Assembly (NCBI GenBank): GCA_965215555.1
Contig: OZ244071.1
Location: 2,517,647 to 2,581,646 of the forward strand
Direction of reading: 5' to 3'
Origin: Dehalococcoidia bacterium
GTDB lineage: Bacteria; Chloroflexota; Dehalococcoidia; Bin125
DNA: 64,000 nucleotides
Made by a program: the position numbers and the translations under genes. The notes beneath the pieces were generated by a model, which saw nothing but the letters and a program-made list of their open reading frames with translations, made no database searches and was not told the origin of the DNA. How positions within the stretch are numbered: the first letter of the stretch is position 1; each line of letters opens with the position of its first letter. Positions 1 through 14,090 of the stretch are shown here, piece after piece.

Positions 1-326
1 TGCGCCAGGGCTGAGTCGCCGCGTCCAATCCCCAGATACGCGCGACCGCCGCTCTCGGCCTGGATCGCCGCAATCGCCGAGGCGGTCACGGCAGGATGAC
101 GCGTGTAGGAGTTGGTCACCCCCGTGCCCAGCTTGAGCCTCGTCGTTGCATGCGCAGCGACGGTCAACGCGACGTAGCAGTCGCTCGCTCGGTTCTGGCT
201 GTCGACGAACGTGATGCCGTCGTAACCCAGCTCCTCAGCGCGTTGTGCTTGGCGGGCCGAGGTGAATACGGAGGGATCTCCACTCGAGGCGCGCCCTCGG
301 CCTGCTGTCCAGAATTCCACTGCCAT
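1..326 (-). CDS. LLM-class (luciferase-like) flavin-dependent oxidoreductase, N-terminal part; the gene runs off the window start
   Basis: Minus-strand frame starts with ATG at 326-324 (MAVEFW...). DNA of 1-320 is clearly paralogous to 1080-1399, the N-terminus of the next gene. Confidence 0.65.
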   Translation of the reverse strand, partial: MAVEFWTAGRGRASSGDPSVFTSARQAQRAEELGYDGITFVDSQNRASDCYVALTVAAHATTRLKLGTGVTNSYTRHPAVTASAIAAIQAESGGRAYLGIGRGDSALA

Positions 327-328
327 GA

Positions 329-1399
329 CTACGAGCCCTTCAACTGCGGGATCACGTCCTGCGTGAAGCGGACGCTTGATTCGGTGTCGGGATCGTTCGG
401 ATCGAGCGGGGATCCGCGGAAGATGAAGCGGTCGATGCCGATATCAATCAACTCACCGAGACGCTGGACGCAATAGTCGGGCGAGCCAAAGACGCCAAAG
501 GAGCGCTCGAACTCGGTCGGGATCACCTCGGCCTGCGCGCTACCGGGACGGCCATGTCCGTGCATGTCGTAGGCGTCGTGGATGTCGGTCAGGACCCTGG
601 TCTGCTGCTCCGTCGCTGGGCCGACGACTTCGCCGTACATGTTGGAGAACCGAGCAAACAGCGACACCTGACCAGCGCCAATCCGCATCGCCTGTTCAGG
701 ATCGTCGTGAACGGCCAGCGGGATGTATGCAGCGAATGGGATCTCCGGGTCGAGTCCTGCTTCGTCGCGGGCTGTACGCGCTACGTCCATGCCCCAGCGG
801 GTGCGCTCCACGTCGGCGCCGACGTTGAAGCTGACCCGATCGGCGTGCCGAGCGGCAGCCTGGATCACGCGCGGTCCGGTCGCCGCGACGTCAACTGGCA
901 CTTTGGGACCCATGCGATTCATGTAGCGGATGTTGCTGGCCTGCGGCGTGTCGGCCAGGCCAAGCGCGCCGACATCGCTCTCGTCGAAGCCAACGCTCTC
1001 GCCGCGCAGGTATGCCTGGAGTTCCTCCAAGTAGCGCTCGAACGGGCCGACGCCATGGGGCGCCAGTCCGAGATGGGCCAACGCCGAGTCTCCCCGACCA
1101 ATACCCATGTGCGCCCGACCGCGACTCTCGGCCTGCACTGTGGCAATGCACGACGCTGTGATCGCAGCGTGTCGCGTATATGAATTGGTCACGCCGGTGC
1201 CCAGTTGGATGCGTGATGTCGCGTGGGCGGCCAGCGCCATTGAAATGTAACAATCGGGAGCGAGGTTCTGGCTATCGACCCAGACGATGCCGTCGTAGCC
1301 CATCTGCTCGGCCTGTACGGCCATCTGCACGCCATCGAATACGGCCGGATCATCGTTGGTCGGCACACCGGCACCCATGGTCCAGAATTCCACTGGCAT
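329..1399 (-). CDS. LLM-class flavin-dependent oxidoreductase (F420/FMN luciferase-like monooxygenase family)
   Basis: ORF 329..1486 with MPVEFWTMGAGVP... and typical LLM TIM-barrel motifs. Start chosen at ATG 1399, preceded by GAGGAG. Tandem paralog of the previous gene with a 2-nt gap. Confidence 0.8.
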   Translation of the reverse strand: MPVEFWTMGAGVPTNDDPAVFDGVQMAVQAEQMGYDGIVWVDSQNLAPDCYISMALAAHATSRIQLGTGVTNSYTRHAAITASCIATVQAESRGRAHMGIGRGDSALAHLGLAPHGVGPFERYLEELQAYLRGESVGFDESDVGALGLADTPQASNIRYMNRMGPKVPVDVAATGPRVIQAAARHADRVSFNVGADVERTRWGMDVARTARDEAGLDPEIPFAAYIPLAVHDDPEQAMRIGAGQVSLFARFSNMYGEVVGPATEQQTRVLTDIHDAYDMHGHGRPGSAQAEVIPTEFERSFGVFGSPDYCVQRLGELIDIGIDRFIFRGSPLDPNDPDTESSVRFTQDVIPQLKGS

Positions 1400-1591
1400 C
1401 TGAGATCTCCTCAACTTGACCGCTGTTGGTGATTGGCTGGAGGGTAGCTCCTCTCCATGGCAGGTCGCCATTGCAGGACGACGCATCTACGGCCGAGTGG
1501 AAGGACAGACGCAATGAAACCGCCTACCGACCATCGCTGAGAGCGTCGGCCCGAGCCGGCGTCGGCGCGGCCAGCTGCGGTTGCTCGGCGG

Positions 1592-1687
1592 ATGGGCGTG
1601 GATGACAGCGTCGCCTTCCACTACGGACGAGGCAAGCTCACGGTCCGCGAGCGGATTAGCCGGCGGGAAGATCGAGAAGCCTCCTGA
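1592..1687 (+). pseudogene. Short duplicated fragment of the acyl-CoA carboxyltransferase N-terminus (gene remnant)
   Basis: MGVDDSVAFHYGRGKLTVRERI... matches residues around ADSVAFHHGRGKLTVRERIELL of the gene at 4133..5695. About 60 nt of near-identity (1604-1665 vs 4205-4265), then a stop. Confidence 0.5.
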
Positions 1688-1708
1688 CTCGCTGCTAGTC
1701 TGTCGCCA

Positions 1709-4060
1709 ATGAATTGGATCGGCGGGATTCCTCGATGTGCCCCACACACTGAGACGACTTCGCGACATCACCTGTTGACCGTGTTCCTGGTGATCTTTGC
1801 GATCGCCGTCGCGATGAGCATCGCGACATCCGTCGCTCAAGCCGCCGATTCGGACACTGAGACGATCGAACTTGAACCAGGTGACAATTTCATCGGCTGG
1901 GTGGCGGAGCCGATCGCGGTCGCAGACATCTTCAAAGCGATCCCGCAGGCGGCTCTGATTTATCGCTGGGACGCCGACTCGCGGAAGTATCAACATGCGA
2001 TCCGCGAGATCGGCGGCAGTCTGGAAACGCTCCAGCCCGGCATGGCCGCGAATATACGTATCGAGGGCCAAGAGAGTGTCAAGTGGGAACGGCCGCTGAC
2101 GCCTGCCAAGGGCATGGTGCCGCTGTACTCGGGCGTGAACTGGGTCGCCTGGAACGGCCGCGATGACTGGCCGCTCGACCAGGTCGCGAGAGGTATCGGC
2201 AAGTCATTAGTCAGCATCGAAGTACGAGGTAATATCTACGAGCCTGATACTGAGTCCAACATCCCATCAATCCGTCGCGGCGACGCGCTCCGAGTCACCG
2301 TCAACCGAGACCTGCGCTGGCTGCAGCCAACGGGCATGATGCCCAAGGTGGTATTGGTCGGGGACATCCCGGAGTCACTTAACGATGAGATCATGGCTGA
2401 TATTAGAAGCGTTATGGAGTTCCTGTCCGAAACGTTCGCAATCGAGACGGATTTCTCAGGGACGACCATATTGCTGTATAGCGATATCGATGCAGCAGTC
2501 GACCACGCAGAGTCCAGCGCAGAACCGCATCTTGGCTATTCTCCAGACAGGCTTCGCGGAACCTTGGCATCCGGTCGGATTGCACAAGCACATCCATGGG
2601 GGTTTTTCATGTCTGCTTGTGGCTGGCTGACGCCGAGTCCGCCGCCATGCTACGGCCGGACGACAGAGACAATCGCTCATGAGTGGTTCCATGTGTTGCA
2701 AAGTCAGCTGTCTGCGAAGCAACGTGTGCGTAAGTCACCGGTGTGGATGGATGAGGGAGGTGCTACATGGGCAGAATGGCAATTGCCGAGCGAATTGCGT
2801 AAAGCGTCGAGTGAAGGCTCCAGACAGTGGAGACTCGATCGTGTCGCAGGAACAACTGAACCGCTAGAGAGCGCGGAAGCCGCCTACCACGGTTGGGAAT
2901 ACGATCTGGGCTCGTTGGCAGCCGATCGGTTGGTCAACCTGAGTGGCGCAGATTCACTGCTTGAGTTCTACCGCCAGCTGCATCCACAAATCATTGGCGA
3001 TGAGCGTCTCTGGGTGCGTGACCCATCTTGGCGCGAAGCGTTTGACGATGTATTCGGGCTGACCGCCGACCAGTTCTATGCGGATTATGCAGCCTGGCGG
3101 CAAACGCTGCCGAGACCTGCTCAACGGGTCAACTACGATCCAAACGACGTGAAACTCTCCGGGACAATCGAGCAAAGCGACGGCTCCCCTGCCACGGGGT
3201 TCATCTTCGTCGCCGAAGCGTATGATGGCGAGATTTCCGTCGGCATTCAGAATGCCGCGATCGTTGATGAAGCTGGGAACTTCTCTGTTTGGCTCGAGCC
3301 AGACACGATACACCGGGTCTGGGTGACACATGACAGCTGCACACTCTGGCCTACCGACAGCGGGCTGACAACTGTGCTCCCACAGCCGGGACAATACCGC
3401 GATCTCGACACTCGCAACCTACCGAGTCTGAATTTGAAGTTGCCTGAAGGCGCATGCGAGAACATACTGCGCGCTACCATCACTAGCTTGCGTGATGATC
3501 CACGCTACCTCGATGTGCTACTCATCGATGACGAGACACACAAATGGACACATGTACGGCGTCAAATCGGCGGCGCACATGTTGGTCATGCGCCACAGCC
3601 CGGGAAGTATCTGTTGCGCGTCAGGATCGGTGACTGCGGAGTGTACTACGCCAATGATGGTATGGTCGCCTTTAGACATGATGCCGATGTCCTGGAGATT
3701 GGCAAAGCCCCCGTTTCGATTGACTTCCGTGTACCGAAAAACATGTGCGTGCGACAGATTAGCGGCCGGCTTCTCAACGAAGATGGGGTGGCGGTCGGAG
3801 GAGTGTGGCTGAGCGCTTGGTACAATGGAGCCGAAAGTGGTGGCCAAACATCTGCGTCCGGAGACTTCAGCATCACCGTTCCCGAATCAGGACACTACAA
3901 GCTCCATATCTGGACCAGAGTTGCAGGATGTTACGTCAACTATGCAAATGCAGGCGCTACCACCGACTCGCGCCGAGCAACTCAAATCACTGTCGCCGAT
4001 GAGGATGTGACCGGTATCGAGTTCGTCGTGCCCAACGACCCTGCGAGCCTCTGCGAGTGA
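1709..4060 (+). CDS. Secreted HExxH zinc-metallopeptidase-like protein with C-terminal beta-sandwich (carboxypeptidase-regulatory-like) domains
   Basis: N-terminal signal/TM LLTVFLVIFAIAVAMSIATSVAQA. HEWFH (HExxH) followed about 20 aa later by MDEGG (gluzincin-like E). C-terminal SGRLLNEDGVAVGGVWL... repeats. GC about 52-58%, far below the flanks. Confidence 0.5.
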   Translation: MNWIGGIPRCAPHTETTSRHHLLTVFLVIFAIAVAMSIATSVAQAADSDTETIELEPGDNFIGWVAEPIAVADIFKAIPQAALIYRWDADSRKYQHAIREIGGSLETLQPGMAANIRIEGQESVKWERPLTPAKGMVPLYSGVNWVAWNGRDDWPLDQVARGIGKSLVSIEVRGNIYEPDTESNIPSIRRGDALRVTVNRDLRWLQPTGMMPKVVLVGDIPESLNDEIMADIRSVMEFLSETFAIETDFSGTTILLYSDIDAAVDHAESSAEPHLGYSPDRLRGTLASGRIAQAHPWGFFMSACGWLTPSPPPCYGRTTETIAHEWFHVLQSQLSAKQRVRKSPVWMDEGGATWAEWQLPSELRKASSEGSRQWRLDRVAGTTEPLESAEAAYHGWEYDLGSLAADRLVNLSGADSLLEFYRQLHPQIIGDERLWVRDPSWREAFDDVFGLTADQFYADYAAWRQTLPRPAQRVNYDPNDVKLSGTIEQSDGSPATGFIFVAEAYDGEISVGIQNAAIVDEAGNFSVWLEPDTIHRVWVTHDSCTLWPTDSGLTTVLPQPGQYRDLDTRNLPSLNLKLPEGACENILRATITSLRDDPRYLDVLLIDDETHKWTHVRRQIGGAHVGHAPQPGKYLLRVRIGDCGVYYANDGMVAFRHDADVLEIGKAPVSIDFRVPKNMCVRQISGRLLNEDGVAVGGVWLSAWYNGAESGGQTSASGDFSITVPESGHYKLHIWTRVAGCYVNYANAGATTDSRRATQITVADEDVTGIEFVVPNDPASLCE

Positions 4061-4132
4061 GACGGATGCAGCCCGACCGGTCGCTTCGTATCATCGTCCG
4101 TGACGCTTTCCGTCACTACGAGGGAGCAGCCA

Positions 4133-5695
4133 ATGAGCTGGCAGCCTGAGTTGGATGAGATGGAACGGCGGGCTGCGCTGGCTCGGCAGATGGGTGGGGC
4201 GGACAGCGTCGCCTTCCACCATGGACGAGGCAAACTCACGGTCCGTGAGCGGATTGAGCTGCTGATCGATCCTGGCGAGTTCCAGGAGACCGGCGTGCTG
4301 GCCGGCAACCCTCAATGGGATGGCAACGAACTTTCCGGCCTGACGCCTGCCAATGCCGTGGTGGGTGTGGCCAAGATCAACGGACGCAAAGTCGCAGTCC
4401 AGGGCGACGACTTCACCATTCGCGGCGGTTCGGCCGACGGCATGATCGGGACCAAGAACGGCTGGGCGATGCGCCACGCCTACATGAACCGGATCCCGTA
4501 CGTGCGTCTGCTCGACGCCACCGGCGGCAGCGTCAAGCACTTCGAGCAGCTCGGCCGCACCTACGTCGTCGGACCGGAGGTCGGCGGCGGTACCGGAGTC
4601 GACGACTTCCTCTGGTACATGCCGCTTGTCAATGTCGTGCTTGGCTCAGTCGCCGGCGCGCCGGCGGTGATCGCCTGCGACGGACATTTCAACGTGATGG
4701 TCAAAGGGACAAGCCAGCTATTCGTCGGTGGACCGCCGGTGGTCAAGGCGAGCCGCGGACTGGACATCTCCAAGGAAGAACTGGGTGGTGAGGATGTTCA
4801 TGTCTACGGCAACGGAGTCGTGCAGAACCTCGCCGAGACTGAGGAAGATGCGATGCACCAGGTCCGCCGCTTCCTGAGCTACCTACCGCAAAACGTCTGG
4901 GAAATGCCGCCACGGCTGGAACCGACCGATGACCCAGAGCGTCGCGAAGAGCGACTGCTCTCAGTCATCCCTCGCAACATGCGCAGGATCTACAACGTTC
5001 GCAAGATCTTGGATTGGGTGCTCGACAAAGACTCCTTCTTCGAGATCCAACCACATTGGGGCAAGTCGAGGATCACGGGACTCGCACGCGTTGACGGCTA
5101 CCCGGTTGGCGTGATGATCAACAACCCGCGCGAGAATGGCGGCTCGCCGAACAAGGACACGTCTGAGAAGATCATGCGCATGATCTCGCTCTGCGACACC
5201 TTCCACCTGCCGCTGGTCTATTTCTGCGACGAGCCCGGATTCTCGGTCGGTCCGGCCGACGAACAGTCCGGTCTCGTTCGCACAGGCGCGCGATTGATGT
5301 TGACCAGCCGGCTCTCGCAGATGCCCTACCTCGTCTTCATCACACGACAGGCGTACGGCGTCGCCGGAGGACTGCAGTACCGGCGAGGCAACGCGCTCTA
5401 CCGTCGCTACGCCTGGCCGTCGGCGCACTGGGGATCGATGCACATCGAGGGTGGTGTGACCGCCGCCTACCGTCGTGAAATCCGCGAGTCGGACGATCCG
5501 GAGGCCAAGCGCCTGGAGATCGAGGGGAGGCTCAACGAGATCCGCTCACCCATGAGAACCGCGCACGCATTCGGCATCGAGGACATGATCGATCCCAGAG
5601 AAACACGCCCGCTGCTAGTCGATTTCGTCCGCGACGCACAGTCCTACATCGCGCAACACCTCGGTCCAACGACTCGTATTCCTTACATGCCGTAG
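4133..5695 (+). CDS. Acyl-CoA carboxylase carboxyltransferase subunit (propionyl-CoA carboxylase beta / methylmalonyl-CoA carboxyltransferase family)
   Basis: ORF 4100..5695. Conserved GGADSVAFHHGRGKLTVRERIELLIDPGEF and the two crotonase-like CT halves. Start placed at ATG 4133, after GAGGGAG. Confidence 0.85.
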   Translation: MSWQPELDEMERRAALARQMGGADSVAFHHGRGKLTVRERIELLIDPGEFQETGVLAGNPQWDGNELSGLTPANAVVGVAKINGRKVAVQGDDFTIRGGSADGMIGTKNGWAMRHAYMNRIPYVRLLDATGGSVKHFEQLGRTYVVGPEVGGGTGVDDFLWYMPLVNVVLGSVAGAPAVIACDGHFNVMVKGTSQLFVGGPPVVKASRGLDISKEELGGEDVHVYGNGVVQNLAETEEDAMHQVRRFLSYLPQNVWEMPPRLEPTDDPERREERLLSVIPRNMRRIYNVRKILDWVLDKDSFFEIQPHWGKSRITGLARVDGYPVGVMINNPRENGGSPNKDTSEKIMRMISLCDTFHLPLVYFCDEPGFSVGPADEQSGLVRTGARLMLTSRLSQMPYLVFITRQAYGVAGGLQYRRGNALYRRYAWPSAHWGSMHIEGGVTAAYRREIRESDDPEAKRLEIEGRLNEIRSPMRTAHAFGIEDMIDPRETRPLLVDFVRDAQSYIAQHLGPTTRIPYMP

Positions 5696-6012
5696 TGGGG
5701 AAGTGCAGGCCCCGCGATAGACTGACAGCAAGCAATGGACGGTGGAGCAGGACCATGCGCGGACGAAGCGTCTTGAGGCCGCGAGTCAATCGCTACATTG
5801 AGATTTCGCGACCTCGGCGTTCATTTTGGACAGGCGCGGCGCGCCTCTGGGACTTTTCGGGCGCGTTGACTCCTCGGGTCAAGGTCAGGCGGTCGTTGTC
5901 AACCAAGACTGCGGCGGAAGCTCTAGCGGGGGACTGGGCCGTTGTCGGAAGAGATCTCCGAGAGGCCATGTCTTCGCAAGGCGAGTCAAGTGACCGGAAC
6001 GTCGTCTGAGCG

Positions 6013-6513
6013 ATGGCACGCTCGGAGCAGGACTACGAGGCATCGGCTGTCGAACCGCTGGAGTCGAATCGTTCGTTAGGCGCCGTCGTTCGCACCGAAT
6101 CCTCAGCCCTGCATGCAGGACCGTTGCCGCATCCTGACCAGTTTCGCCAATACGAGGAGACACTTCCAGGTGCAGCCGACCGTATTCTGACAATGGCCGA
6201 ACAGGAGTCGCAGCATCGACAGCTCATGGAGCGGAGCGTTCTGGACCTGGAAGAAGCGAGCATTGAGCTTCAGCGAGAGGTCACCCGAGAAGAGATTGCG
6301 CAATCGCGTTTAGGTCTCGTCATCGGGGCGTTTATCTCCGTCATTCTGGTTGTCACTGCGTTGGTCGTTGCCGTGATCGGCCACCCTTGGCCAGCCGTTG
6401 TGATAGGTACAGCGGACATCGTCGCTTTGGCCAGCATCTTCGTTTACGGCGCACGCACACGTAGCATCGACCAAGACTCCCCAGAAATTGTCGGCGAAGG
6501 CAATGAGGAGTGA
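6013..6513 (+). CDS. Membrane protein, DUF2335-like
   Basis: N-terminal PLPHPDQFRQYEETLPGAADRIL motif followed by two TM helices. Family assignment is from memory of the motif. Confidence 0.45.
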   Translation: MARSEQDYEASAVEPLESNRSLGAVVRTESSALHAGPLPHPDQFRQYEETLPGAADRILTMAEQESQHRQLMERSVLDLEEASIELQREVTREEIAQSRLGLVIGAFISVILVVTALVVAVIGHPWPAVVIGTADIVALASIFVYGARTRSIDQDSPEIVGEGNEE

Positions 6514-6580
6514 GATTGCCGCCGGCATCTAATGTGCCGATGGCCATTGATGGTATTCCTAAGTCGGTGAAGCGGCACGC

Positions 6581-7816
6581 CTAGAACGGTGGAGCCTTGT
6601 GCGACTCGACTTCCCCGATCGAGTCCGCGTCATAACCAAGTTCCCTCATCACTTCTGACGTGTGTTGGCCCAGGTCGGAGAACGAGTTCTTTGGCTCTCC
6701 CGGAGTACGGCTCATCCGGATCGGGATGCCGGCGACTCGACGCCGACCGACGTGGGGGATGTCCTTCTCCACGATGTAGCCGTTGACTAGCGCTTGCTCG
6801 TCGTTGAGCACCTCTTCGTAGTTCTGCACCCGTTGGGCAGTGATGCCGTCGGGGTGAATCTCAAAGAACGCTTGCCATGCTTCACTGGTTCGGCTCTTGA
6901 TCATTTCGGCGACGAATGGGCGTACGTCTTTGGCGGAGTCCATTGCCTGCTGGTCTCGGTAGGGATCACGCCCCTCGCGATGGTTCCATCGCGGATCGTC
7001 GGCGAGTTGAGGATTGCCGCCAAACTCGCAGAACTCGCGCCAGGTCTCGTCGTCACGGATGCCCATGCAGAATGCGACGCCGTCGGAGGCCTCGTAGATC
7101 CCGGTCATCGCCGAGACGACGGGATGAAAGCCGCCGTCCCTGGTTGGCAAGCGCCCGGTCGCTGAGGTGTGGTTGATCTCCCAGGCCTGCATCCAGATCA
7201 TCGCTCCGTATGACGAAGTCTGCACTTTCTGGCCGAGCCCGTCGCGTTGACGTGCGACCAGCGCCGTCAGCACACCCATGGCGAGCGCCATCGCGCCGCC
7301 GGTGTCGGCGATGATCGTGCCCGGAATGAGCTGCGGATCATCGGGTGTGCCTGTGACGCCGGATATGCCGCTGCGCGCTTGGGCGAACTGGTCGCTCATT
7401 CGGTTCTCACGCGCTGGGCCGTCCGGACCGAAGCCGTTAGCGACGGCGTAGACCAGTCCGGGATTGCGCGCCGACAGTCGCTCGTAGCCCATCCCCATCC
7501 GCTCCAGCGCCGGTTCTCGATAGTTGCTCAGAAACACGTCGGCCGTGTCGACCAGCTTGTCGACCAACTCCAGCCCGATTTCGGTGTGGATGTCGACGCA
7601 GACCGAGCGCTTGCCGTGCGATGCGCCGATGAACTGCGTGCCCACCGACTCATACGGCAGGTCGTTGTTTGCGCCGCGGTACCAACGATTGGCGTCGCCG
7701 ACGGGAGGTTCGACCTTGATCACATCGGCGCCCATATCGGACAGGAATCCGCCTGCGGCCGGACCCTGTACGGCAATCGTCAGCTCCACAACCCGAATGC
7801 CCTCAAGCGCTTCCAT
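6581..7816 (-). CDS. CoA-transferase family III (CaiB/BaiF-like)
   Basis: GIRVVELTIAVQGPAAGGFLSDMGADVIKVEPP hallmark. Length is 411 aa. Confidence 0.85.
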   Translation of the reverse strand: MEALEGIRVVELTIAVQGPAAGGFLSDMGADVIKVEPPVGDANRWYRGANNDLPYESVGTQFIGASHGKRSVCVDIHTEIGLELVDKLVDTADVFLSNYREPALERMGMGYERLSARNPGLVYAVANGFGPDGPARENRMSDQFAQARSGISGVTGTPDDPQLIPGTIIADTGGAMALAMGVLTALVARQRDGLGQKVQTSSYGAMIWMQAWEINHTSATGRLPTRDGGFHPVVSAMTGIYEASDGVAFCMGIRDDETWREFCEFGGNPQLADDPRWNHREGRDPYRDQQAMDSAKDVRPFVAEMIKSRTSEAWQAFFEIHPDGITAQRVQNYEEVLNDEQALVNGYIVEKDIPHVGRRRVAGIPIRMSRTPGEPKNSFSDLGQHTSEVMRELGYDADSIGEVESHKAPPF

Positions 7817-7963
7817 CCTGCTCCTCCTTCATCGCTGGCTGCCATCGCCGGCTGCCGCTCATCCTGCGGCCAATCGCTAGTATGGCGGAGGCCGCAACCT
7901 CTCGCGTTGGATGGCATGCGGCGGACGAGTAAAGGGCCGTGTGTTGGGAGTCGGGATCCAGCC

Positions 7964-10360
7964 ATGACGCTTCCGCTACATGATGTCCGAGTCCTCGACC
8001 TCTCCGACCATCGAGCGGCGCTGGGCTCGCGAATGCTGGCCGACCTCGGCGCCGAGGTCACGATGGTCGAGCCGCCGGGCGGCAACTCCATCCGCCATCA
8101 GGCACCCTATGTGGACGATCAGCCTTCGCCCGAACGCAGCTACCAGCATCTCTATTTCAACGTCAACAAGCGGTCGCTGGTGCTCGACTGGCGCAGCACC
8201 GAGGGACTTGACCGGCTGCTCGAACTGGCAACGTCGGCCGACATCTTGATCGAGTCGAACCAGCCCGGCGATTTCCCGGTTGACAGTCTGCGCGAAGCAA
8301 ATCCGCACCTGATCGTGGTCTCGGCGACGCCATACGGACAGCGCGGCCCCAGGTCGGACTGGCGAGCCACGGACCTGACGACCACTGCCGCAGGCGGACT
8401 GCTGCAAGTCAGCGGTGAACGAGCGGATCCGCCTGCGCATGGCGCGGCATTTCCGGGACACACGATGACCGGGCTGACCATCGCCTCGTCGGCAATGACC
8501 GCCCTGCATGGACGCGACCGCACGCCGGGCCGACCGGGTTGCCAGATCGATATCTCGATGCAAGAAGCGACCTCATTTCAGGTCGTCCAGACCTCGAATC
8601 CAAACACCTGGCGCTGGCGAGGAGAAGCGCCCTACCGGCCGGCGCTCTCGCAGGTGATCCGCTGCGCCGATGATCGCTGGATGGGCTGCAACATCTCGCC
8701 CAACAAACTGCCCGAGTTCATCGCGATGCTGGACGAGGCGGGCGTCGAGCATGATCTCGACGCGGACAACTGGGAAGTGATCCATCGCGGTGACCGAGCC
8801 GCCTGGCAATACCTCGAGAATCCGCTACAGGATCTGGCCAAAGATCTGGCCGCCTGCTGGCCTCGGCAGAAACTGCTCGAGCGTCTCTGGGCCGCTGGCA
8901 TGCCAGCCATGCCGACCTTGCGGTTCAGCGAGTTTGCGGAGAGCGGTCACTATCCGAGCTCAGGCCAGTTCATCTCAGTCGAGACGCCAGCGGTCGGCAA
9001 GGCCTTGAGCTATTCGCGCAGCCCGCTCGATCCCGTGCAGTCGCCGCTGCCGATGCAAACTGCGCCAAGCTTGGGCGAGCACACGGACTCCTCATTCACA
9101 TCGCCTGCTGCCGGAGATAACGAAGGCCGCAGAGAGTCCGCTCCATTCCCGGACATGCCCCTCTCGGGAATTCGTGTGCTTGATCTGACCTGGGTGGCCG
9201 CGGGTCCGCTGACGACGCGTTTGATGGCCAACTTCGGCGCCGAAGTGATCAAGGTCGAGTCCAGCGGCGACCGGATGGATCCCGTGCGGGTGCAACCGGT
9301 CAAGGGCGAGTTTCAGTTCGATCTCGCCGACCTCTTCAATGAGGTCAACACGGGCAAGCAATCGCTCACTGTTAATCTCGCCGATGAACAGGGCAAGGAT
9401 CTGCTTCGCGAGCTGATTGGCCATTGCGATGTGTTGGTCAACAACTATTCTGGCGGCTCACTGGCTCGGATGGGTTTCCCCTGGGAAGACCTGCGCAAGA
9501 TCAATCCGCGATTGATCAGCGTCCACTTGCCCGGCGTCGGCGGAGATAGCCCTTGGCGACCGCTGCGCACGCTTGGCAATCTACTCAAGGCGGCAGCCGG
9601 TATGAACTTCCAGATGGGATACCCGCATCAGCCGCCGCGAGGCATGGGCGTCGCCTATCCCGATTTCACCTCACCGCATGTTGGCGTCACAGCGATCCTC
9701 GCGGCGCTGCGCGCACGCGAAGAGACAGGTGAGGGACGCGAAATCGAACTGAGCCAGCTCAGCGCGACAGTGGCGCTGCTTGGTGCGCAGTGGATGCAGT
9801 TCGACCAGCTCGGCGAAGACCTGCCGCGTCTCGGCAACTCCGATCCCAACATGTGTCCTCACGGGGTGTTTCCATCGGCGGGAGACGATCAGTGGGTCGC
9901 CATCGCGCTGGAATCGGACGATCAATGGCCGGCGTTTGCAGAGACCATCGGGCGACCGGAGTGGATCCGGGATGCATCGCTGCAGTCCGTGGCGGGTCGC
10001 AAATTGCGCAACGACGAGATCGAGGCGGCGATCAGCGAGTGGACATCGCAGCGCTCAAAGTGGGAAGCAGCCGAGGCATTGCAGACAGCCGGGATCGCAG
10101 CCAACGCCGTCGAGGATCTGCGCGACATGATGGACATCGATGAGCACTTCCGCGATCACTACCAGCGCGTTGAGCAGCCCTCGCATCCTGGATTTGGCAT
10201 CTGGATCGACGGCGCGCCGTGGGAGTTTGCGCACTTGGAAAAGCGCATGCTCGAACGTGCGCCAATGCTCGGCGAGCACAACGAGATAATTCTCAGCGGA
10301 CTGCTGGGCAAGAGCGAAGCTGCAATCGCCGAGTTGATCGCCGCTGGCGTCGTAGGCTGA
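7964..10360 (+). CDS. Tandem-domain CoA-transferase family III protein (two CaiB/BaiF modules fused)
   Basis: ATG at 7964 is in frame with ORF 7247..10360. Module 1: VRVLDLSDHRAALGSRMLADLGAEVTMVEPPGG. Module 2: GIRVLDLTWVAAGPLTTRLMANFGAEVIKVESSGD. The upstream ORF extension overlaps the divergent caiB-like gene and is rejected. Confidence 0.8.
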   Translation: MTLPLHDVRVLDLSDHRAALGSRMLADLGAEVTMVEPPGGNSIRHQAPYVDDQPSPERSYQHLYFNVNKRSLVLDWRSTEGLDRLLELATSADILIESNQPGDFPVDSLREANPHLIVVSATPYGQRGPRSDWRATDLTTTAAGGLLQVSGERADPPAHGAAFPGHTMTGLTIASSAMTALHGRDRTPGRPGCQIDISMQEATSFQVVQTSNPNTWRWRGEAPYRPALSQVIRCADDRWMGCNISPNKLPEFIAMLDEAGVEHDLDADNWEVIHRGDRAAWQYLENPLQDLAKDLAACWPRQKLLERLWAAGMPAMPTLRFSEFAESGHYPSSGQFISVETPAVGKALSYSRSPLDPVQSPLPMQTAPSLGEHTDSSFTSPAAGDNEGRRESAPFPDMPLSGIRVLDLTWVAAGPLTTRLMANFGAEVIKVESSGDRMDPVRVQPVKGEFQFDLADLFNEVNTGKQSLTVNLADEQGKDLLRELIGHCDVLVNNYSGGSLARMGFPWEDLRKINPRLISVHLPGVGGDSPWRPLRTLGNLLKAAAGMNFQMGYPHQPPRGMGVAYPDFTSPHVGVTAILAALRAREETGEGREIELSQLSATVALLGAQWMQFDQLGEDLPRLGNSDPNMCPHGVFPSAGDDQWVAIALESDDQWPAFAETIGRPEWIRDASLQSVAGRKLRNDEIEAAISEWTSQRSKWEAAEALQTAGIAANAVEDLRDMMDIDEHFRDHYQRVEQPSHPGFGIWIDGAPWEFAHLEKRMLERAPMLGEHNEIILSGLLGKSEAAIAELIAAGVVG

Positions 10361-10431
10361 GCGCGCAAGCTGAGCCGTGAAGCTCAGCCGACATGCTGAG
10401 CCTGAAGTTGGTCCGATCCTGAGGAGGAACC

Positions 10432-11394
10432 ATGCCCAAGTATGTGATGCTGCCGCCGATCGACGATGACATGCGCTTCTGGGCGCAGCAGATGCGTGAT
10501 GAGATTCCGGGGCTTGATGTCGTGGTGGTTGAGGACGAAGCAGATGGTCCGCAGGAACTGGCCGATGCCGACGGCGCATACGGCTGGGTTGCTCCGGATG
10601 TCCTGCCCAACACCGAGCGCCTGCGTTTGCTGCAAAATCCCTTCGCCGGGCCGCCGGTCGGTTGGTACTACCCCGAGTTGGCCGAGCATTCGGTCACGGT
10701 CAGCAATCCGCGAGGCATCTACTCCGATCACATCGCGCATCACATCATGATGTACATGCTGGCGCTCTCACGAGGACTGCCGTACTACAGCGCTGCCCAG
10801 GCAGAGGGTCGCTGGAACAAGAGTGCGCGCAAACGTGGCTACATCGATCTGACCACATCGACCGTGCTGATCAACGGGGTCGGTGGCATTGGATCTGAGG
10901 CGGCTCGGTTGTGCTCGGCATTTGGATGCCGAGTGATCGGTGTCGATCCGAGCCCGTACGGTGAGTTCGACGGTGAAATTGTCGCGCCTACGGAGTTAGA
11001 CGACCGCCTGCCCGAAGCCGACTTCGTTGTCACGACCGTGCCTCACACTCCCGAGACGGAGTTCATGTGGAACGCTGATCGCTTCACGGCGATGAAAAAC
11101 TCCGCCTACTTCATCAACATCGGCCGCGGGATGACCTGCAGGCTTGACGACCTGGTCACAGCACTCGACAACGGGGACATTGCTGGAGCCGGACTCGATG
11201 TGTTTGAGATCGAGCCGCTCCCCGAAGGACATCCGCTCTGGCAGATCGAGAACGTGATCATCACGCCGCACATCGCCGTCGCCGATGCGGAGAACATCCC
11301 CGAGCGACGCTTCGAGTTGATCCTCGAGAATGCACGACGACTGGTTGAGGGCCGTGATTTCGTTAACGTCGTCGACAAGGAGAAGTGGTACTGA
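10432..11394 (+). CDS. D-isomer-specific 2-hydroxyacid dehydrogenase family, NAD-binding
   Basis: GVGGIGSEAARL Rossmann motif, catalytic-domain motifs and GGAGGA RBS at 10420-10426. Confidence 0.85.
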   Translation: MPKYVMLPPIDDDMRFWAQQMRDEIPGLDVVVVEDEADGPQELADADGAYGWVAPDVLPNTERLRLLQNPFAGPPVGWYYPELAEHSVTVSNPRGIYSDHIAHHIMMYMLALSRGLPYYSAAQAEGRWNKSARKRGYIDLTTSTVLINGVGGIGSEAARLCSAFGCRVIGVDPSPYGEFDGEIVAPTELDDRLPEADFVVTTVPHTPETEFMWNADRFTAMKNSAYFINIGRGMTCRLDDLVTALDNGDIAGAGLDVFEIEPLPEGHPLWQIENVIITPHIAVADAENIPERRFELILENARRLVEGRDFVNVVDKEKWY

Positions 11395-11537
11395 CGCTTC
11401 TCGCGTCGTCCTCATCGACTGAAGGTCGGATCCGAAGCAGCTCAACACCAACCTCGCCAAATCCGCGCTTGTCGCGGATATCTCGCGGCATCCTCAACAC
11501 TGGCCGTGACCGCGCAGATGGCGCAGAGCGACACGAA

Positions 11538-14090
11538 CTATCGAATCACTTCCGAGATCATCAGATCCGTCATTTCGTCCTCGCTCAGCCCCAGCACCTG
11601 TCGGTAGACCTCTTCGTTGTGCTCTCCGAAGAATGGCGCGCGACGAATCGGCAGACGCTCGCCATTCCAGAGGAAGGGCTGATTCTGCGCCATGAACTTG
11701 ATCCCGATCGGATGATCGAACTCGTGGAAGAATCCGTCTAGCGACGGGTCTGATTCGACCAAGTCCTGGATGTCCTCATTAGGACCGGCCGGGATGCCCG
11801 CGGCTACCAATAGCTCCGTCGCTTCCCAGAGATCGAGACCGGAGGTCCAGGCAGTGACGGCCGATTCGATCTCCTCCTCGGCAGCCTGACGGCCGCTCAA
11901 TGTTCGTAGATCATCGCGGGCCGCAAGATCGTCTCGTCCTATGACGCGGCACAACTCCAGCCAATCGACAGTGTTGCGCACGTCGAGCGCCAGCCACTTG
12001 TCGTCGCCCGCGCACTGGAAGTTGCCGTGGGGCGACGACTCGGGTGATCGATTGCCACGTCGCGGCGGCGTCTCGCCGTTGGCCAGTTGCTCGATGAGTT
12101 CGGTGTCGAGCAGTTGGATGCCTGCCTCATACTGGGGAATCTCAACTTCCTGGCCGATGCCGGTGCGCTCGCGCTGGATCAGTGCCGAGACGATGGCCGT
12201 CACCGCTAACGGCGCGAGTGTGAAGTCGGTGTGCAGCAGCACGCCTGTTGGCTTCCGATCTGCTGGCCCAGTGTGCGCGGCTAGTCCGCAGAGTGCAACG
12301 ACGCTGTTGCCGATGCCCTTCCATGACGCTTTCGGACCCCAGGTGCCCATCACCGGGAAGCTGGCACACACAATCCGAGGGTTGATCTGCTTCAGATCGT
12401 CATAGCCCAGGCCGAGGCGCTTCATCACACCGCCGGTGAAGTTGTCGGTGACCACATCCGCATCGCGGATCAGGTCATAGGCGATGCGCAGGCCGTCAGG
12501 AGCGCTGAGATTGACATTGACGCTGCGCTTGTCGGTGTTGCAGTCCTGGAAGAACGCCCCGGTCTCAATTGAGGGTGGATCGTGAGCATTGAGCGCGACG
12601 CGCAGCGTGTCAATCCGCGCGTCCGACTCAATCTTGATCACATCCGCGCCCAGATTCGCCATCAGTTCGGTCGTGAGAGGACCCGCCGCCTGCCAGCAGA
12701 AGTCAATCACGCGAATGCCCTTGAGCGGCAGGTCATCGCGGTCGATTGCTCGGCCCGATTGCTTACCATTTTGCGCCTGATCTGTCGGGGCGCGACTGCT
12801 CCGCGCGATCCGCTCTTCCCCTCCCGAGCGAGGGGAGATGCCGAAAGCCTGCCCTGCACTTGATGCGGGGGCTGCAGGCGGTCCGACAACCAGTCCGCTT
12901 GCTGACATTCGCTCGTACTCGGCTTCGTCCACACCAAGCAACTCCACCAACACATCAGCCGAGGCCGCCCCCAGCGTCGGGGCCGGACGCCCGACCGGCT
13001 CGTATCCGGTCGAATGGACTGGCAATCGCGGCAGATCGATCGTCCGATCAAACTGCGGATGTTCGACCGGCAAGAATGCGCCACGTTCGTGGAGATGTGG
13101 ATCCTCGACAATGTCCTTGACCGAGTTCACAGGCACGACGAGGAAGCCTCGTGACTGTCCCTCGAAACACAGCTCGTCGCGTGGCAACGTGGCGCAGGCT
13201 CGTTGGAATGCCTGGTGCGTTTCGGTACCCCAATCAGGCATCCAGATGTCACCGGGACGCTCAGTCCCAATCAGCCCGTCGTAGCCGACTCGTTCGTTCA
13301 ACCACTCGGCGAACGCGGCGTAGCGCTGGTCGGTGGTCGGCACGAGCCCGAACGTCACCCAGTCGCCGTCCTGTGCCTGCACGAGGAAGGAAATGTGGCC
13401 ACCCGGCCGATAGGCCTTCTCGCCCATGTGAACCCACATGTTCTCGTTGGCGAAGTGGATCGTGGTCGAGAGCATCGCCTCCTGCAGCGAGATGTACGCG
13501 TGGTTGGCTTGGTCGCCGTTGCGACGGTCGTAGAGCATCGCCGTCGCCGTCGCCGCGGCGACCTGACTGGCCTGCTTGTAGGCCAGCCGCCCCGCCGGAT
13601 AGTCGGGCGCGACCTCAGGGAAGCCCAGACCCAGCATCAGTCCGCCACTGGCGACGCCGACAATGTCGGAGGCTGGCAGCGCTTCGCCACCGCGCCGCAT
13701 GACGGCGTCAACCACGCCCAGGTGGGGATGCAATCGCTGCAGCCGATCACGATCAAAGAAGCGGCGAGAGGAGGCAGACTTGTCCAGTGGGGCCAGCACG
13801 ACGTCGGCAGACGCCAACAGCCGATCAATCAGATCCCATGCGCCCGGCGCATCGAAGTTCAACGCCAGGCTGCGCTTGCCAGCGTTGTACAACAGGTGGC
13901 GCAGTCCGCTTTCCGGGTCGTTGCGACCCTCAAGATGCGGACCGGCAATGCGCAGAGCGTCGCCGGCTGCGGACTCAACGCGAATCACGTCGGCGCCAAA
14001 GTCGGACAGCCAGCGAGCGCCGAGCGCCAGGCACTCGTCGCTCAGATCAATGACAACTGAGCCGGCGAGCGGGAGGTCGGATACAGCCAT
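11538..14090 (-). CDS. Tandem-domain CoA-transferase family III protein (second paralog)
   Basis: Module 1: SVVIDLSDECLALGARWLSDFGADVIRVESAAGD. Module 2: GIRVIDFCWQAAGPLTTELMANLGADVIKIESD. Length is 850 aa. Confidence 0.8.
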   Translation of the reverse strand: MAVSDLPLAGSVVIDLSDECLALGARWLSDFGADVIRVESAAGDALRIAGPHLEGRNDPESGLRHLLYNAGKRSLALNFDAPGAWDLIDRLLASADVVLAPLDKSASSRRFFDRDRLQRLHPHLGVVDAVMRRGGEALPASDIVGVASGGLMLGLGFPEVAPDYPAGRLAYKQASQVAAATATAMLYDRRNGDQANHAYISLQEAMLSTTIHFANENMWVHMGEKAYRPGGHISFLVQAQDGDWVTFGLVPTTDQRYAAFAEWLNERVGYDGLIGTERPGDIWMPDWGTETHQAFQRACATLPRDELCFEGQSRGFLVVPVNSVKDIVEDPHLHERGAFLPVEHPQFDRTIDLPRLPVHSTGYEPVGRPAPTLGAASADVLVELLGVDEAEYERMSASGLVVGPPAAPASSAGQAFGISPRSGGEERIARSSRAPTDQAQNGKQSGRAIDRDDLPLKGIRVIDFCWQAAGPLTTELMANLGADVIKIESDARIDTLRVALNAHDPPSIETGAFFQDCNTDKRSVNVNLSAPDGLRIAYDLIRDADVVTDNFTGGVMKRLGLGYDDLKQINPRIVCASFPVMGTWGPKASWKGIGNSVVALCGLAAHTGPADRKPTGVLLHTDFTLAPLAVTAIVSALIQRERTGIGQEVEIPQYEAGIQLLDTELIEQLANGETPPRRGNRSPESSPHGNFQCAGDDKWLALDVRNTVDWLELCRVIGRDDLAARDDLRTLSGRQAAEEEIESAVTAWTSGLDLWEATELLVAAGIPAGPNEDIQDLVESDPSLDGFFHEFDHPIGIKFMAQNQPFLWNGERLPIRRAPFFGEHNEEVYRQVLGLSEDEMTDLMISEVIR

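What the first reader, a model, noticed from the sequence alone, without database searches (positions are those of the whole stretch)
1590..4070. Lower-GC metallopeptidase-like gene inserted next to a duplicated N-terminal fragment of the carboxyltransferase gene
At 1604-1665 about 60 nt are near-identical to 4205-4265, the N-terminal coding region of the acyl-CoA carboxyltransferase. This reads as a 31-codon orphan fragment (MGVDDSVAFHYGRGKLTVRERI...stop). Between this fragment and the intact gene lies a 783-aa secreted HExxH protein whose GC (about 52-58%) is well below that of the surroundings. A target-site-like duplication plus foreign GC suggests the protease-like gene arrived by insertion or recombination into or next to the carboxyltransferase 5' end.
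Basis: partly seen in the sequence, partly recalled or inferred. Interest (0 to 1): 0.55.

Follow-up and report, generated by a model that had tools for sequence, protein, structure and literature searches.

The report
Old insertion scar beside a carboxyltransferase gene
In a sponge-associated Chloroflexi genome, a gene for a secreted zinc-protease-like protein was inserted long ago into the start of a carboxyltransferase gene, copying that start; later deletions left a dead fragment, so this is ordinary genome evolution that can be reconstructed in unusual detail.

Summary
Window 1568-1657 repeats 4166-4255, the codons 12-41 of the carboxyltransferase (CT) gene: 90 nt, 86% identical. A 783-aa HExxH ORF with lower GC lies between the two copies.

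Thirty orthologous loci show the usual order: LLM-LLM-SBP-permease-permease-CT. Two sister genomes, L011 and L092, carry a homologue of the 783-aa gene between the second permease and CT. L092 keeps the other half of the duplicated CT start (codons 1-22), joined to the same 51-nt junction sequence as in the window.

So there was one old insertion that duplicated at least 123 nt of the CT 5' end, or about 145 nt if the 22 nt upstream are counted. Each lineage then lost a different piece. The window clade lost about 3.9 kb, the whole ABC transporter, leaving a 40-nt SBP island fused to CT codons 12-41.

The 31-codon ORF is a decaying composite pseudogene. No transposase, integrase, tRNA or terminal inverted repeats are present, so this is not a transposon target-site duplication.

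The low GC3 is a property of the whole family in every genome examined, so it does not show recent foreign arrival.

The gene belongs to a tandem-arrayed, mosaic family of secreted gluzincin-like proteins.

Interest is modest.

The parts
329..1399 (-). Luciferase-like monooxygenase gene (LLM1, 356 aa from the ATG at 1399). It is the conserved left anchor of the locus.
   Evidence: Bac_luciferase 142 bits. Orthologous in all related loci.
1400..1535 (+). Retained LLM-proximal part of the old LLM-SBP intergenic region. The ATG at 1514 is intergenic, not a gene start.
   Evidence: Window 1395-1535 is 88% identical to L074 5825-5963. The next ~130 nt of L074 are missing from the window. They hold a conserved TTATATTTCGCG motif, the RBS and SBP codons 1-18.
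1536..1575 (+). Remnant of the 5' end of the SBP_bac_5 ABC-transporter gene, from its Tat-type signal peptide: ..LRASARAGVGAA.
   Evidence: Frame 3 reads SLRASARAGVGAA, identical to the SBP N-termini of L003 and L004. Window 1527-1575 is 94% identical to L011 3636-3684 and 92% to L092 5935-5983.
1568..1657 (+). CT' remnant: a decaying copy of CT codons 12-41. This is the left arm of the duplication.
   Evidence: 86% identical to 4166-4255 and 91% to the L011 CT 5' end. Seven fragment-unique changes fall at codon positions 2,3,1,2,2,3,1. At five or six further sites the fragment keeps the ancestral state.
1592..1687 (+). The 31-codon 'orphan' ORF (MGVDDSVAFHYGRGKLTVRERISRREDREAS*). It is an accidental reading frame across CT' and the junction sequence.
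   Evidence: Its homologous region in L092 and L011 is deleted in different ways or read in another frame.
1658..1708 (+). Junction sequence X, 51 nt of unknown origin that arrived with the insert. It ends in GCCAATGA, which overlaps the ATG at 1709.
   Evidence: Homologous to L092 from 9917 onward, which follows that locus's own CT' remnant. The tail CTGA|CTCGCTGCTAGTCTG resembles the stop codon plus downstream spacer of an array member in L089; 1 of 200 shuffles scored as high.
1709..4060 (+). 783-aa gene ('p783'). It has an N-terminal signal or anchor helix (residues ~22-45, ..AQA|AD), an N-terminal beta domain, and a gluzincin-like catalytic domain (H324 E325 H328 E349). Three C-terminal CarboxypepD_reg-like beta-sandwich domains follow, then a conserved C-terminal ..VTGIEFVVPNDPASLCE. 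The true start may be the TTG at 1775.
4061..4110 (+). 50-nt spacer downstream of p783 that came with the insert.
   Evidence: About 82% identical to the spacer after the L011 and L092 genes. Not alignable to other family spacers.
4111..4132 (+). Native CT upstream region (GTCACTACGAGGGAGCAGCCA, includes the RBS). It is identical to the permease2-CT spacer of genomes without the insert.
   Evidence: 30/30 identity with L074 9979-10008.
4133..5695 (+). Intact acyl-CoA carboxyltransferase gene (520 aa). Positions 4166-4255 are the right arm of the duplication.
   Evidence: Carboxyl_trans 290 bits; mmdA-type subfamily hit far below its cut-off. Orthologues at 80-98% aa identity in about 30 Dehalococcoidia MAGs.

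Best explanation
The locus is the scar of one old insertion followed by lineage-specific deletions.

In the ancestor the order was LLM-LLM-SBP-permease1-permease2-CT-CoA transferase. A unit of about 2.5 kb was inserted at the 5' end of CT. The unit consisted of a 51-nt junction sequence, a leader, the p783 gene and a 50-nt spacer. I infer that it was cut from a tandem array of p783 paralogues.

The insertion left CT codons 1-41, and probably the 22 nt upstream, on both sides of the insert. That is a duplication of at least 123 nt and up to about 145 nt. The right copy stayed the working gene.

No mobile-element machinery is involved. The likely route (inferred) is recombination using short or partial homology. 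Examples are single-crossover integration of a circular piece, or homology-facilitated illegitimate recombination.

The left copy then decayed and was trimmed differently in each lineage, each time at a few bases of microhomology:
- L092 lost CT' codons ~23-41.
- L011 lost everything between GCCAATGAGCTGG (the CT' start) and GCCAATGAATTGG (the p783 leader). Its p783 now uses CT's old RBS and ATG.
- The window clade lost ~130 nt of SBP promoter and start, and ~3.9 kb running from SBP codon ~32 to CT' codon ~11. This removed the ABC transporter.

The 31-codon ORF is therefore a non-functional composite remnant.

p783 is an intact gene under selection. It encodes a secreted MA-clan (gluzincin-type) zinc-metallopeptidase-like protein with three C-terminal beta-sandwich domains. 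It comes from a family that sits in arrays of 6-8 copies in related sponge-symbiont Dehalococcoidia and evolves by exchange of segments between paralogues. Its low third-position GC is a trait of that family.
For: SHOWN
- The repeat is real.
- Synteny: about 25 orthologous loci have SBP-perm1-perm2 directly upstream of CT. These include L009, L010 and L074, whose CT is 98% identical in aa. L003 has LLM followed by 197 bp and then CT. Only the window-type strains (L001, L007, L008) and L011 carry p783, plus L092.
- L011 junction: perm2 stop, native spacer, ATGAGCTGG|ATCGACGGG... The window has ATGAATTGG|ATCGGCGGG..., the same joint.
- L092 junction: perm2 stop, native spacer, CT' codons 1-22, then the same X sequence and leader as window 1651 onward. 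Identity is 82.7% over 888 nt.
- The SBP remnant and the retained intergenic piece with its 130-nt deletion.
- Fragment decay. Seven unique changes are spread evenly over the codon positions. Five or six other differences are changes on the functional-copy lineage.
- The fragment is closest to the CT alleles of its own clade (91% to L011), not to the distant CT paralogues at about 55% aa.
- Age: CT dS is 0.30 between the window and L011 and 0.23 between the window and L074.
- No transposase, integrase, tRNA, Rfam hit or terminal inverted repeats.
- Family: 91 close homologues, several per contig. Arrays of 6-7 copies within the fetched stretches of L089 and L090.
- GC3 is 0.63-0.74 in all copies, against 0.72-0.89 in the non-family genes compared.
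- Mosaic structure: residues 1-100 are closest to the L011-site gene, 201-600 to P0002, and 651-750 to P0003.
- Protein: H324, E325, H328, E349, G350 and six Cys are invariant. CarboxypepD_reg hits 36 of 37 members.
- Structure: AF2 pLDDT 78.9. Foldseek finds M1 aminopeptidase N at E about 1e-7 and pilin/TIE/SdrD-B-type beta-sandwiches at about 1e-10.
- dN/dS is about 0.27 between strains.

INFERRED
- The recombination route of the original insertion.
- An array as the donor, which rests only on the weak match.
- The enzymatic activity.
Against: - Presence of the insert is patchy on local gene trees. L074 groups with the window clade, and L009 and L010 group with L011 and L092, yet all three lack it. 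One gain therefore needs two or three precise losses, or spread of the allele by homologous recombination. Neither was shown (one search was uninformative).
- A patch of about 45 nt around the CT start differs. The window has the native upstream sequence plus CAGCCTGAGTTG. L011 and L092 have a different upstream sequence plus CAAGCCGAACTG. So the extension of the duplication 22 nt upstream of the ATG rests on the window clade alone.
- The L092 assembly has a homopolymer run and fragmented gene calls, so single bases there are unreliable.
- No donor array matching X and the leader was found.
- Peptidase family scores are all below curated cut-offs, and whole-model TM-scores are low (about 0.2).
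Confidence: 0.77

Rival explanations
1. A mobile element or genomic island carrying the low-GC protease gene was recently acquired from outside, and its transposition or integration created a target-site duplication.
For: A direct repeat flanks the insert. The insert has lower GC than its flanks. Distant relatives lack it.
Against: - No transposase or integrase lies in or next to the insert.
- No tRNA and no terminal inverted repeats.
- The repeat is 90 nt or more and only 86% identical.
- The same joint occurs in lineages separated by dS of about 0.3.
- Low GC3 is a trait of the whole family in its resident arrays.
- Another dispersed copy (L002) has no flanking repeat.
Confidence: 0.03
2. 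Different p783 paralogues were inserted independently into a recombination hotspot at the CT start in the window clade, L011 and L092.
For: The window and L011 genes are only 57-58% identical in aa overall, while CT is 98% identical. Presence is patchy on gene trees.
Against: - All three share a unique leader (MSW/MNW-I-D/G-G-F/I-PRC...) not seen in other family members.
- The window and L011 share the same joint after ATGA..TGG.
- The window and L092 share the same X sequence and CT'|X joint.
- The 50-nt downstream spacer is shared.
- The first ~120 codons are 86-95% identical in nt.
- The low overall identity is explained by mosaic replacement of the 3' two-thirds of the gene.
Confidence: 0.06
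3. The duplication was not made at insertion. A larger segment, such as a whole CT gene or p783 plus the CT start, was duplicated in tandem. Deletion then removed most of the first copy, leaving CT' codons 1-41.
For: The end products look the same. Deletions at microhomology are clearly frequent at this locus, with at least four seen. The family forms tandem arrays.
Against: No genome with two full CT copies or two p783 copies at this locus was found among about 30 loci. This route needs more steps. The CT'|X joint is already shared by the window and L092, so any such history lies before their split and cannot be seen.
Confidence: 0.1
4. The fragment is functional: a small leader peptide or 5' regulatory region that controls p783 and CT expression.
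For: It lies directly upstream of p783, in the retained part of the old divergent promoter region. No terminator-like site separates p783 from CT. In L092 the equivalent ORF ends in an ATGA overlap with the p783 ATG.
Against: - Substitutions are spread over all codon positions.
- The reading frame and content differ among the window, L092 and L011.
- No RBS-like sequence lies before 1592 or 1709.
- No Rfam match.
Confidence: 0.04

Closest known systems
Single-crossover (Campbell-type) integration, or homology-facilitated illegitimate recombination of incoming DNA
   Same: The insert has no recombinase. It is flanked by a direct duplication of a stretch of the target gene more than 100 nt long. 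The joints sit at short homologies.
   Different: No donor molecule or donor genome was identified. The copies are now 86% identical. The mechanism is inferred from the end product only.
Transposon or IS target-site duplication
   Same: Direct repeats of target sequence lie on both sides of an inserted segment.
   Different: The repeat is 123-145 nt, not 2-14 bp. There is no transposase and there are no terminal inverted repeats. The repeat copies are diverged.
Microhomology-mediated deletion scars and gene remnants in host-associated bacterial genomes
   Same: Several independent deletions end at 4-13 nt of microhomology. They leave short, decaying pieces of the SBP and CT genes.
   Different: Three sister lineages each keep a different deletion derivative, so the ancestral structure can be rebuilt base by base.
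MA-clan gluzincin metallopeptidases (M1 aminopeptidase N, Peptidase_MA_2 PF13485, M9 collagenase)
   Same: HExxH is invariant, with an invariant Glu 21 residues after the second His, in a W..EG.A.W context. Foldseek matches the N-terminal beta domain plus catalytic domain to M1 enzymes.
   Different: There is no GxMEN exopeptidase motif. All curated family scores are below cut-off. The protein has its own ~240-aa N-terminal domain, three CarboxypepD_reg-like domains and a conserved Cys-containing C-terminus. Activity is untested.
Tandemly arrayed, recombining surface or secreted protein families (my own knowledge; not tested here)
   Same: Arrays of 6-8 paralogues. Similarity between copies is mosaic. 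The ends are conserved and the middle is variable.
   Different: No switching mechanism, silent cassettes or expression site is known. The copies appear to be full-length genes.

Membership tests
Transposon/IS insertion with target-site duplication | Transposase gene within the inserted segment | tested here: not met
   The only long ORF between the repeats is p783. Pfam shows no transposase domain.
Transposon/IS insertion with target-site duplication | Terminal inverted repeats at the insert ends | tested here: not met
   No inverted repeat at 1658/4110. The local alignment of the two ends scores below the shuffle mean.
Transposon/IS insertion with target-site duplication | Short (2-14 bp), initially identical direct repeats | tested here: not met
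   The repeat is 90 nt in the window and at least 123 nt when reconstructed, at 86% identity.
Integrase-mediated genomic island | Integrase gene and a tRNA/tmRNA or att-type site at the border | tested here: not met
   No tRNA in 1-12000. No integrase among the ORFs.
Horizontally acquired foreign gene, judged by composition | Composition deviates from the host genome and is not a property of the gene family itself | tested here: not met
   GC3 is 0.63-0.74 in every family copy in four other loci, against 0.72-0.89 in the non-family genes compared.
MA-clan gluzincin metallopeptidase | HExxH zinc-binding motif conserved across the family | tested here: met
   H324, E325 and H328 are invariant in 37 sequences.
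MA-clan gluzincin metallopeptidase | Third zinc ligand Glu about 18-25 residues after HExxH | tested here: met
   E349 and G350 are invariant, 21 residues after H328. HMMER aligns the stretch with the WLxEGxA of M1 enzymes.
MA-clan gluzincin metallopeptidase | Thermolysin-like catalytic fold | tested here: inconclusive
   Foldseek hits M1 aminopeptidases at E 1e-7 to 1e-5 and probability 1.0 over about 600 columns. TM is only about 0.2 for the whole multidomain model.
MA-clan gluzincin metallopeptidase | Score above a curated family cut-off | tested here: not met
   Peptidase_MA_2 scores 14 bits against a cut-off of 32.4. MXAN_6640_HExxH scores 19.9 against 140. Peptidase_M9 hits are weak and occur in 3 of 37 members.
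MA-clan gluzincin metallopeptidase | Zinc-dependent proteolytic activity | not testable with these tools
   Needs biochemistry.
M1 aminopeptidase | GxMEN exopeptidase motif upstream of HExxH | tested here: not met
   A regular-expression search finds no G.MEN in the protein.
CarboxypepD_reg (PF13620) domain proteins | Domain match above the Pfam gathering score | tested here: inconclusive
   The window protein scores 26.5 bits against 32.3. However, 36 of 37 family members match, with a best E of 4.9e-23. The model shows three beta-sandwich domains at 481-774.
Acyl-CoA carboxylase carboxyltransferase (Carboxyl_trans PF01039), for the neighbouring gene and the fragment | Full-length Carboxyl_trans domain | tested here: met
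   The 4133-5695 product scores 290 bits over residues 29-496. The fragment covers codons 12-41 only.

The most novel reading that the evidence does not exclude
p783 belongs to a family of secreted metalloprotease-like proteins that diversifies by shuffling segments between tandem-array copies and seeds new single-copy loci by short-homology recombination. This would serve interaction with the sponge host, for example its matrix, and the CT locus would be a dated example of such seeding. The family-wide low GC3 would then reflect fast turnover and recombination, not foreign origin.
Probability: 0.2. Interest if true: 0.5.

Novelty: new member of a known kind. Interest (0 to 1): 0.3.

Why it matters
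The finding itself is ordinary: an old insertion, a duplicated gene start and deletion scars. Its value lies in three lessons.

- Three sister lineages keep different deletion derivatives, so the ancestral joint can be rebuilt nearly base by base. This shows how often microhomology deletions reshape operons in these symbionts.
- A GC dip can be a property of a gene family and need not mark recent transfer.
- An orphan ORF next to an insert can be a composite of two dead genes.

The p783 family is not covered by any curated protein family for its full length. It is arrayed and mosaic, and the close homologues examined here come from Dehalococcoidia metagenome assemblies, several of them sponge-derived. 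It could be a useful target for work on how these bacteria deal with host proteins.

Tried and rejected
- Exact-sequence look-ups of the window's own p783 and CT proteins found nothing. The window is a strain not in the collection, and the nearest relatives are 97.6-98.6% identical in nt.
- I first read the ATG at 1514 as the start of CT or SBP. I rejected this because the region is the LLM-proximal intergenic sequence.
- I considered that homology to the CT start extends back to ~1537. I rejected this because that stretch is the SBP signal-peptide remnant.
- I compared X plus the leader with the array spacers. Only one weak 19-nt match was found.
- I looked for flanking repeats at another dispersed family copy, L002. 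None were found.
- I looked for a recombination switch in perm1-perm2 that would show lateral spread of the insert allele. There was no signal.
- Rfam, tRNA and promoter/terminator scans found nothing relevant.
- The PDB sequence search gave only E of about 0.1 against M1 enzymes.
- I considered a foreign, homeologous origin for the functional CT 5' end, because the fragment is closer to the L011 allele (91%) than to its own CT (86%). This is explained more simply by derived changes on the window CT lineage.
Full report
**1. Observation**

Window 1568-1657 matches 4166-4255 over 90 nt at 86% without gaps. BLASTN gives E = 2e-24. The similarity stops abruptly at 1657/4255.

The right copy is codons 12-41 of a 520-aa carboxyltransferase (CT). 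Its ATG is at 4133 and it scores 290 bits against Carboxyl_trans. The 31-codon ORF at 1592-1687 and the 783-aa ORF at 1709-4060 both exist.

The GC dip is real and lies mainly at third codon positions. The ORF has GC 0.572 and GC3 0.631. CT has 0.624 and 0.777, and the window overall has GC 0.619.

**2. Organism and relatives**

The window is not itself in the collections. Three contigs of one metagenome, L001, L007 and L008, have the same gene order. L001 is 97.6-98.6% identical to the window in nt.

A genome scan with CT returned about 30 orthologous loci in Dehalococcoidia/Chloroflexota MAGs. One of them is 'Chloroflexi bacterium bin125' from the sponge Aplysina aerophoba. That bin has 62.3% GC (PMC5649159).

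**3. Synteny**

The predominant order is LLM-LLM-SBP_bac_5-permease-permease-CT-CoA transferase. This holds even in L009, L010 and L074, whose CT is 98% identical in aa. L003 has LLM, then 197 bp, then CT.

Among these loci only the window-type strains and L011 carry the 783-aa gene, which I call p783. A look-up of a truncated homologue added L092. In L011 and L092 the transporter is still present and p783 lies between permease 2 and CT.

**4. The fragment is composite**

- Window 1395-1535 is the LLM-proximal part of the old LLM-SBP intergenic region, 88% identical to L074.
- Next, about 130 nt present in L074 are missing. They hold a conserved TTATATTTCGCG motif, the RBS and SBP codons 1-18.
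- Window 1536-1575 reads ..LRASARAGVGAA, the Tat-type signal peptide of the SBP. Window 1527-1575 is 94% identical in nt to L011.
- From 1568 the sequence switches to CT codons 12-41.

The window clade therefore lost about 3.9 kb, running from SBP codon ~32 to codon ~11 of a left-hand CT copy.

**5. One insertion, three deletion derivatives**

In L011 the native permease2-CT spacer and ATGAGCTGG (CT codons 1-3) run straight into ATCGACGGG..., the p783 leader. The window has ATGAATTGG|ATCGGCGGG..., the same joint.

L092 is the missing link. After the native spacer it has CT codons 1-22. These are followed by the same 51-nt junction sequence X, GCCAATGAATTGG and leader that follow CT codon 41 in the window.

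The leader, X and the 50-nt spacer after the stop codon occur only at this locus.

The ancestor therefore had this structure:

permease2 - spacer - CT'(1-41) - X - leader - p783 - 50 nt - [22 nt of native upstream] - CT

The later losses were as follows.
- L092 lost CT' codons ~23-41, at GCGGAT.
- L011 lost the stretch between GCCAATGAGCTGG and GCCAATGAATTGG.
- The window clade lost the two pieces described in section 4.

The original duplication was at least 123 nt. It was about 145 nt if the 22 upstream bases are counted, but these are seen only in the window clade.

**6. Age and decay**

Thirteen differences separate the fragment from the window's own CT. At five or six of them the fragment keeps the state found in L011, L074 and most relatives. 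Seven are unique to the fragment and fall at codon positions 2,3,1,2,2,3,1, which indicates relaxed constraint.

CT dS is 0.30 between the window and L011, 0.23 between the window and L074, and 0.10 between the window and L001. The 50-nt spacer is about 82% identical between the window and L011, of the order expected for unconstrained sequence at that distance.

The event is therefore old and predates the split of these lineages.

**7. No mobile-element machinery**

There is no transposase, integrase, tRNA, Rfam hit or terminal inverted repeat. Another dispersed family copy, L002, has no flanking repeat.

The mechanism of the first insertion is inferred. The best fit is recombination through short or partial homology, such as Campbell-type integration of a circle or homology-facilitated illegitimate recombination. 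The tail of X resembles the stop codon plus downstream spacer of an array member. This is a weak hint that the unit was cut from an array.

**8. The gene family**

- The word-indexed search found 91 close homologues, often several per contig.
- The fetched stretches of L089 and L090 hold arrays of 6-7 copies (up to 8 per contig), with short spacers or slightly overlapping ORFs between copies.
- A profile search of 1.84 billion representatives gives 482 clusters at E <= 1e-30, with variable architectures.
- GC3 is low (0.63-0.74) in every copy at every locus examined. Host genes at the same loci have 0.75-0.89. Composition therefore says nothing about recent arrival.
- The window gene is a mosaic. 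Residues 1-100 are closest to the L011-site gene (72% and 96% in the two 50-residue blocks; nt identity 86-95% over the first ~120 codons). Residues 201-600 are closest to P0002, from an array in another MAG. Residues 651-750 are closest to P0003.
- This mosaic explains why positional orthologues are only about 58% identical in aa.
- Between strains dN/dS is about 0.27, so the gene is maintained.

**9. The protein**

- The N-terminus has a hydrophobic helix followed by AQA|AD.
- H324, E325, H328, E349, G350 and six cysteines are invariant.
- There is no GxMEN motif.
- CarboxypepD_reg matches 36 of 37 members. Weak Peptidase_M9 and Peptidase_MA_2 hits occur in three members each. All peptidase scores are below curated cut-offs.
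- The AF2 model has pLDDT 78.9 and is poor for residues 1-133.
- Foldseek matches M1 aminopeptidase N over the N-terminal beta domain plus catalytic domain, at E of about 1e-7.
- It matches pilin, TIE and SdrD-B type beta-sandwiches for the three C-terminal domains, at E of about 1e-10.
- Whole-model TM-scores are low.

My reading is a secreted gluzincin-type endopeptidase-like protein. Activity is not shown.

**10. Open points**

- The insert is patchy on local gene trees. This needs either precise losses through the direct repeat or spread by homologous recombination. My test for the latter was uninformative.
- A patch of about 45 nt around the CT start differs between the window and L011/L092. 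This is unexplained.
- The true start codon of p783 is uncertain. The ATG at 1709 has no RBS, and the TTG at 1775 is an alternative.

**11. Verdict**

The gene was inserted at the CT 5' end, and that insertion duplicated the CT start. It was not a transposon-type target duplication and it was not recent. The GC argument does not hold.

This is ordinary genome rearrangement that can be reconstructed unusually well, involving an uncharacterised, arrayed, mosaic metalloprotease-like family.

Noticed in passing
window 5696-6580: The normal 137-nt CT-CoA transferase spacer of close strains is replaced, exactly between the two stop codons, by 885 nt. The new sequence carries a DUF2335 membrane-protein gene (6013-6513, GC3 0.62) and a 104-codon ORF. 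It matches nothing in any fetched locus.
   Followed up: partly
L001 13988-14124; L007 9564-9700; L074 ~11564-11700: The spacer that the window lacks holds a long GC-rich inverted repeat (TAGGGGCGCCCCTTGTGGGCGCCC ... GGGCACCCACAAGGGGCGCCCCTA) between convergent genes. It may be a bidirectional terminator or a repeat element.
   Followed up: no
L074 ~5990-6010; also L011, L003, L004 upstream of the SBP gene: A conserved TTATATTTCGCG-like motif lies upstream of the SBP gene in relatives. It may be a promoter or an operator. It is deleted in the window clade, so p783-CT there lack it.
   Followed up: no
window 1709-4060 against L001 10001-12352: p783 is 99.9% identical in nt between the window and L001, while the adjacent CT gene is only 97.3% identical (dS 0.096). 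This suggests recent recombination between strains within this locus.
   Followed up: no
window 4090-4160 against L011 9960-10030 and L092 12375-12445: A patch of about 45 nt around the CT start differs. The window has the native upstream sequence plus CAGCCTGAGTTG. L011 and L092 have GCTGCGACAAGGGTATCCGCTG plus CAAGCCGAACTG, which resembles alleles of more distant relatives. Gene conversion or allelic replacement is possible.
   Followed up: partly
window 1-326 and 329-1399: Two luciferase-like monooxygenase genes lie in tandem on the minus strand. They are about 65% identical in aa and share an identical 5' motif (GTCCAGAATTCCACTG.CAT). Some relatives (L003, L011, L092) show only one at this position.
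   Followed up: no
L004 19-1665; L092 1556-4162: Different restriction-modification-type genes (N6_N4_Mtase+Mrr_cat; N6_Mtase/MmeI-like/Eco57I) lie between the hydrolase gene and the LLM genes in two relatives. The window has an alcohol dehydrogenase gene there. This is another variable spot next to the locus.
   Followed up: no
L089 1605-2681 and 18497-19027: The p783 array on this contig is interrupted and flanked by IS-type genes (DDE_Tnp_1; IstB_IS21).
   Followed up: no
L011 ~3040-3560: The LLM-SBP intergenic region of L011 holds about 500 nt of lower-GC sequence with repeated GTCCAGATT-like motifs. L074 and the window lack it.
   Followed up: no
window 33018-34337 and 14874-15743: Two other ORFs have GC3 as low as p783 (0.63 and 0.68). 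They were not examined.
   Followed up: no
L090 10001-12391, 12388-14802; L092 ~9857-10020: Several family genes are called with long N-terminal extensions that read through the inter-copy spacer and overlap the previous stop codon (ATGA). True starts are probably internal, so annotated N-termini of the family are unreliable.
   Followed up: no
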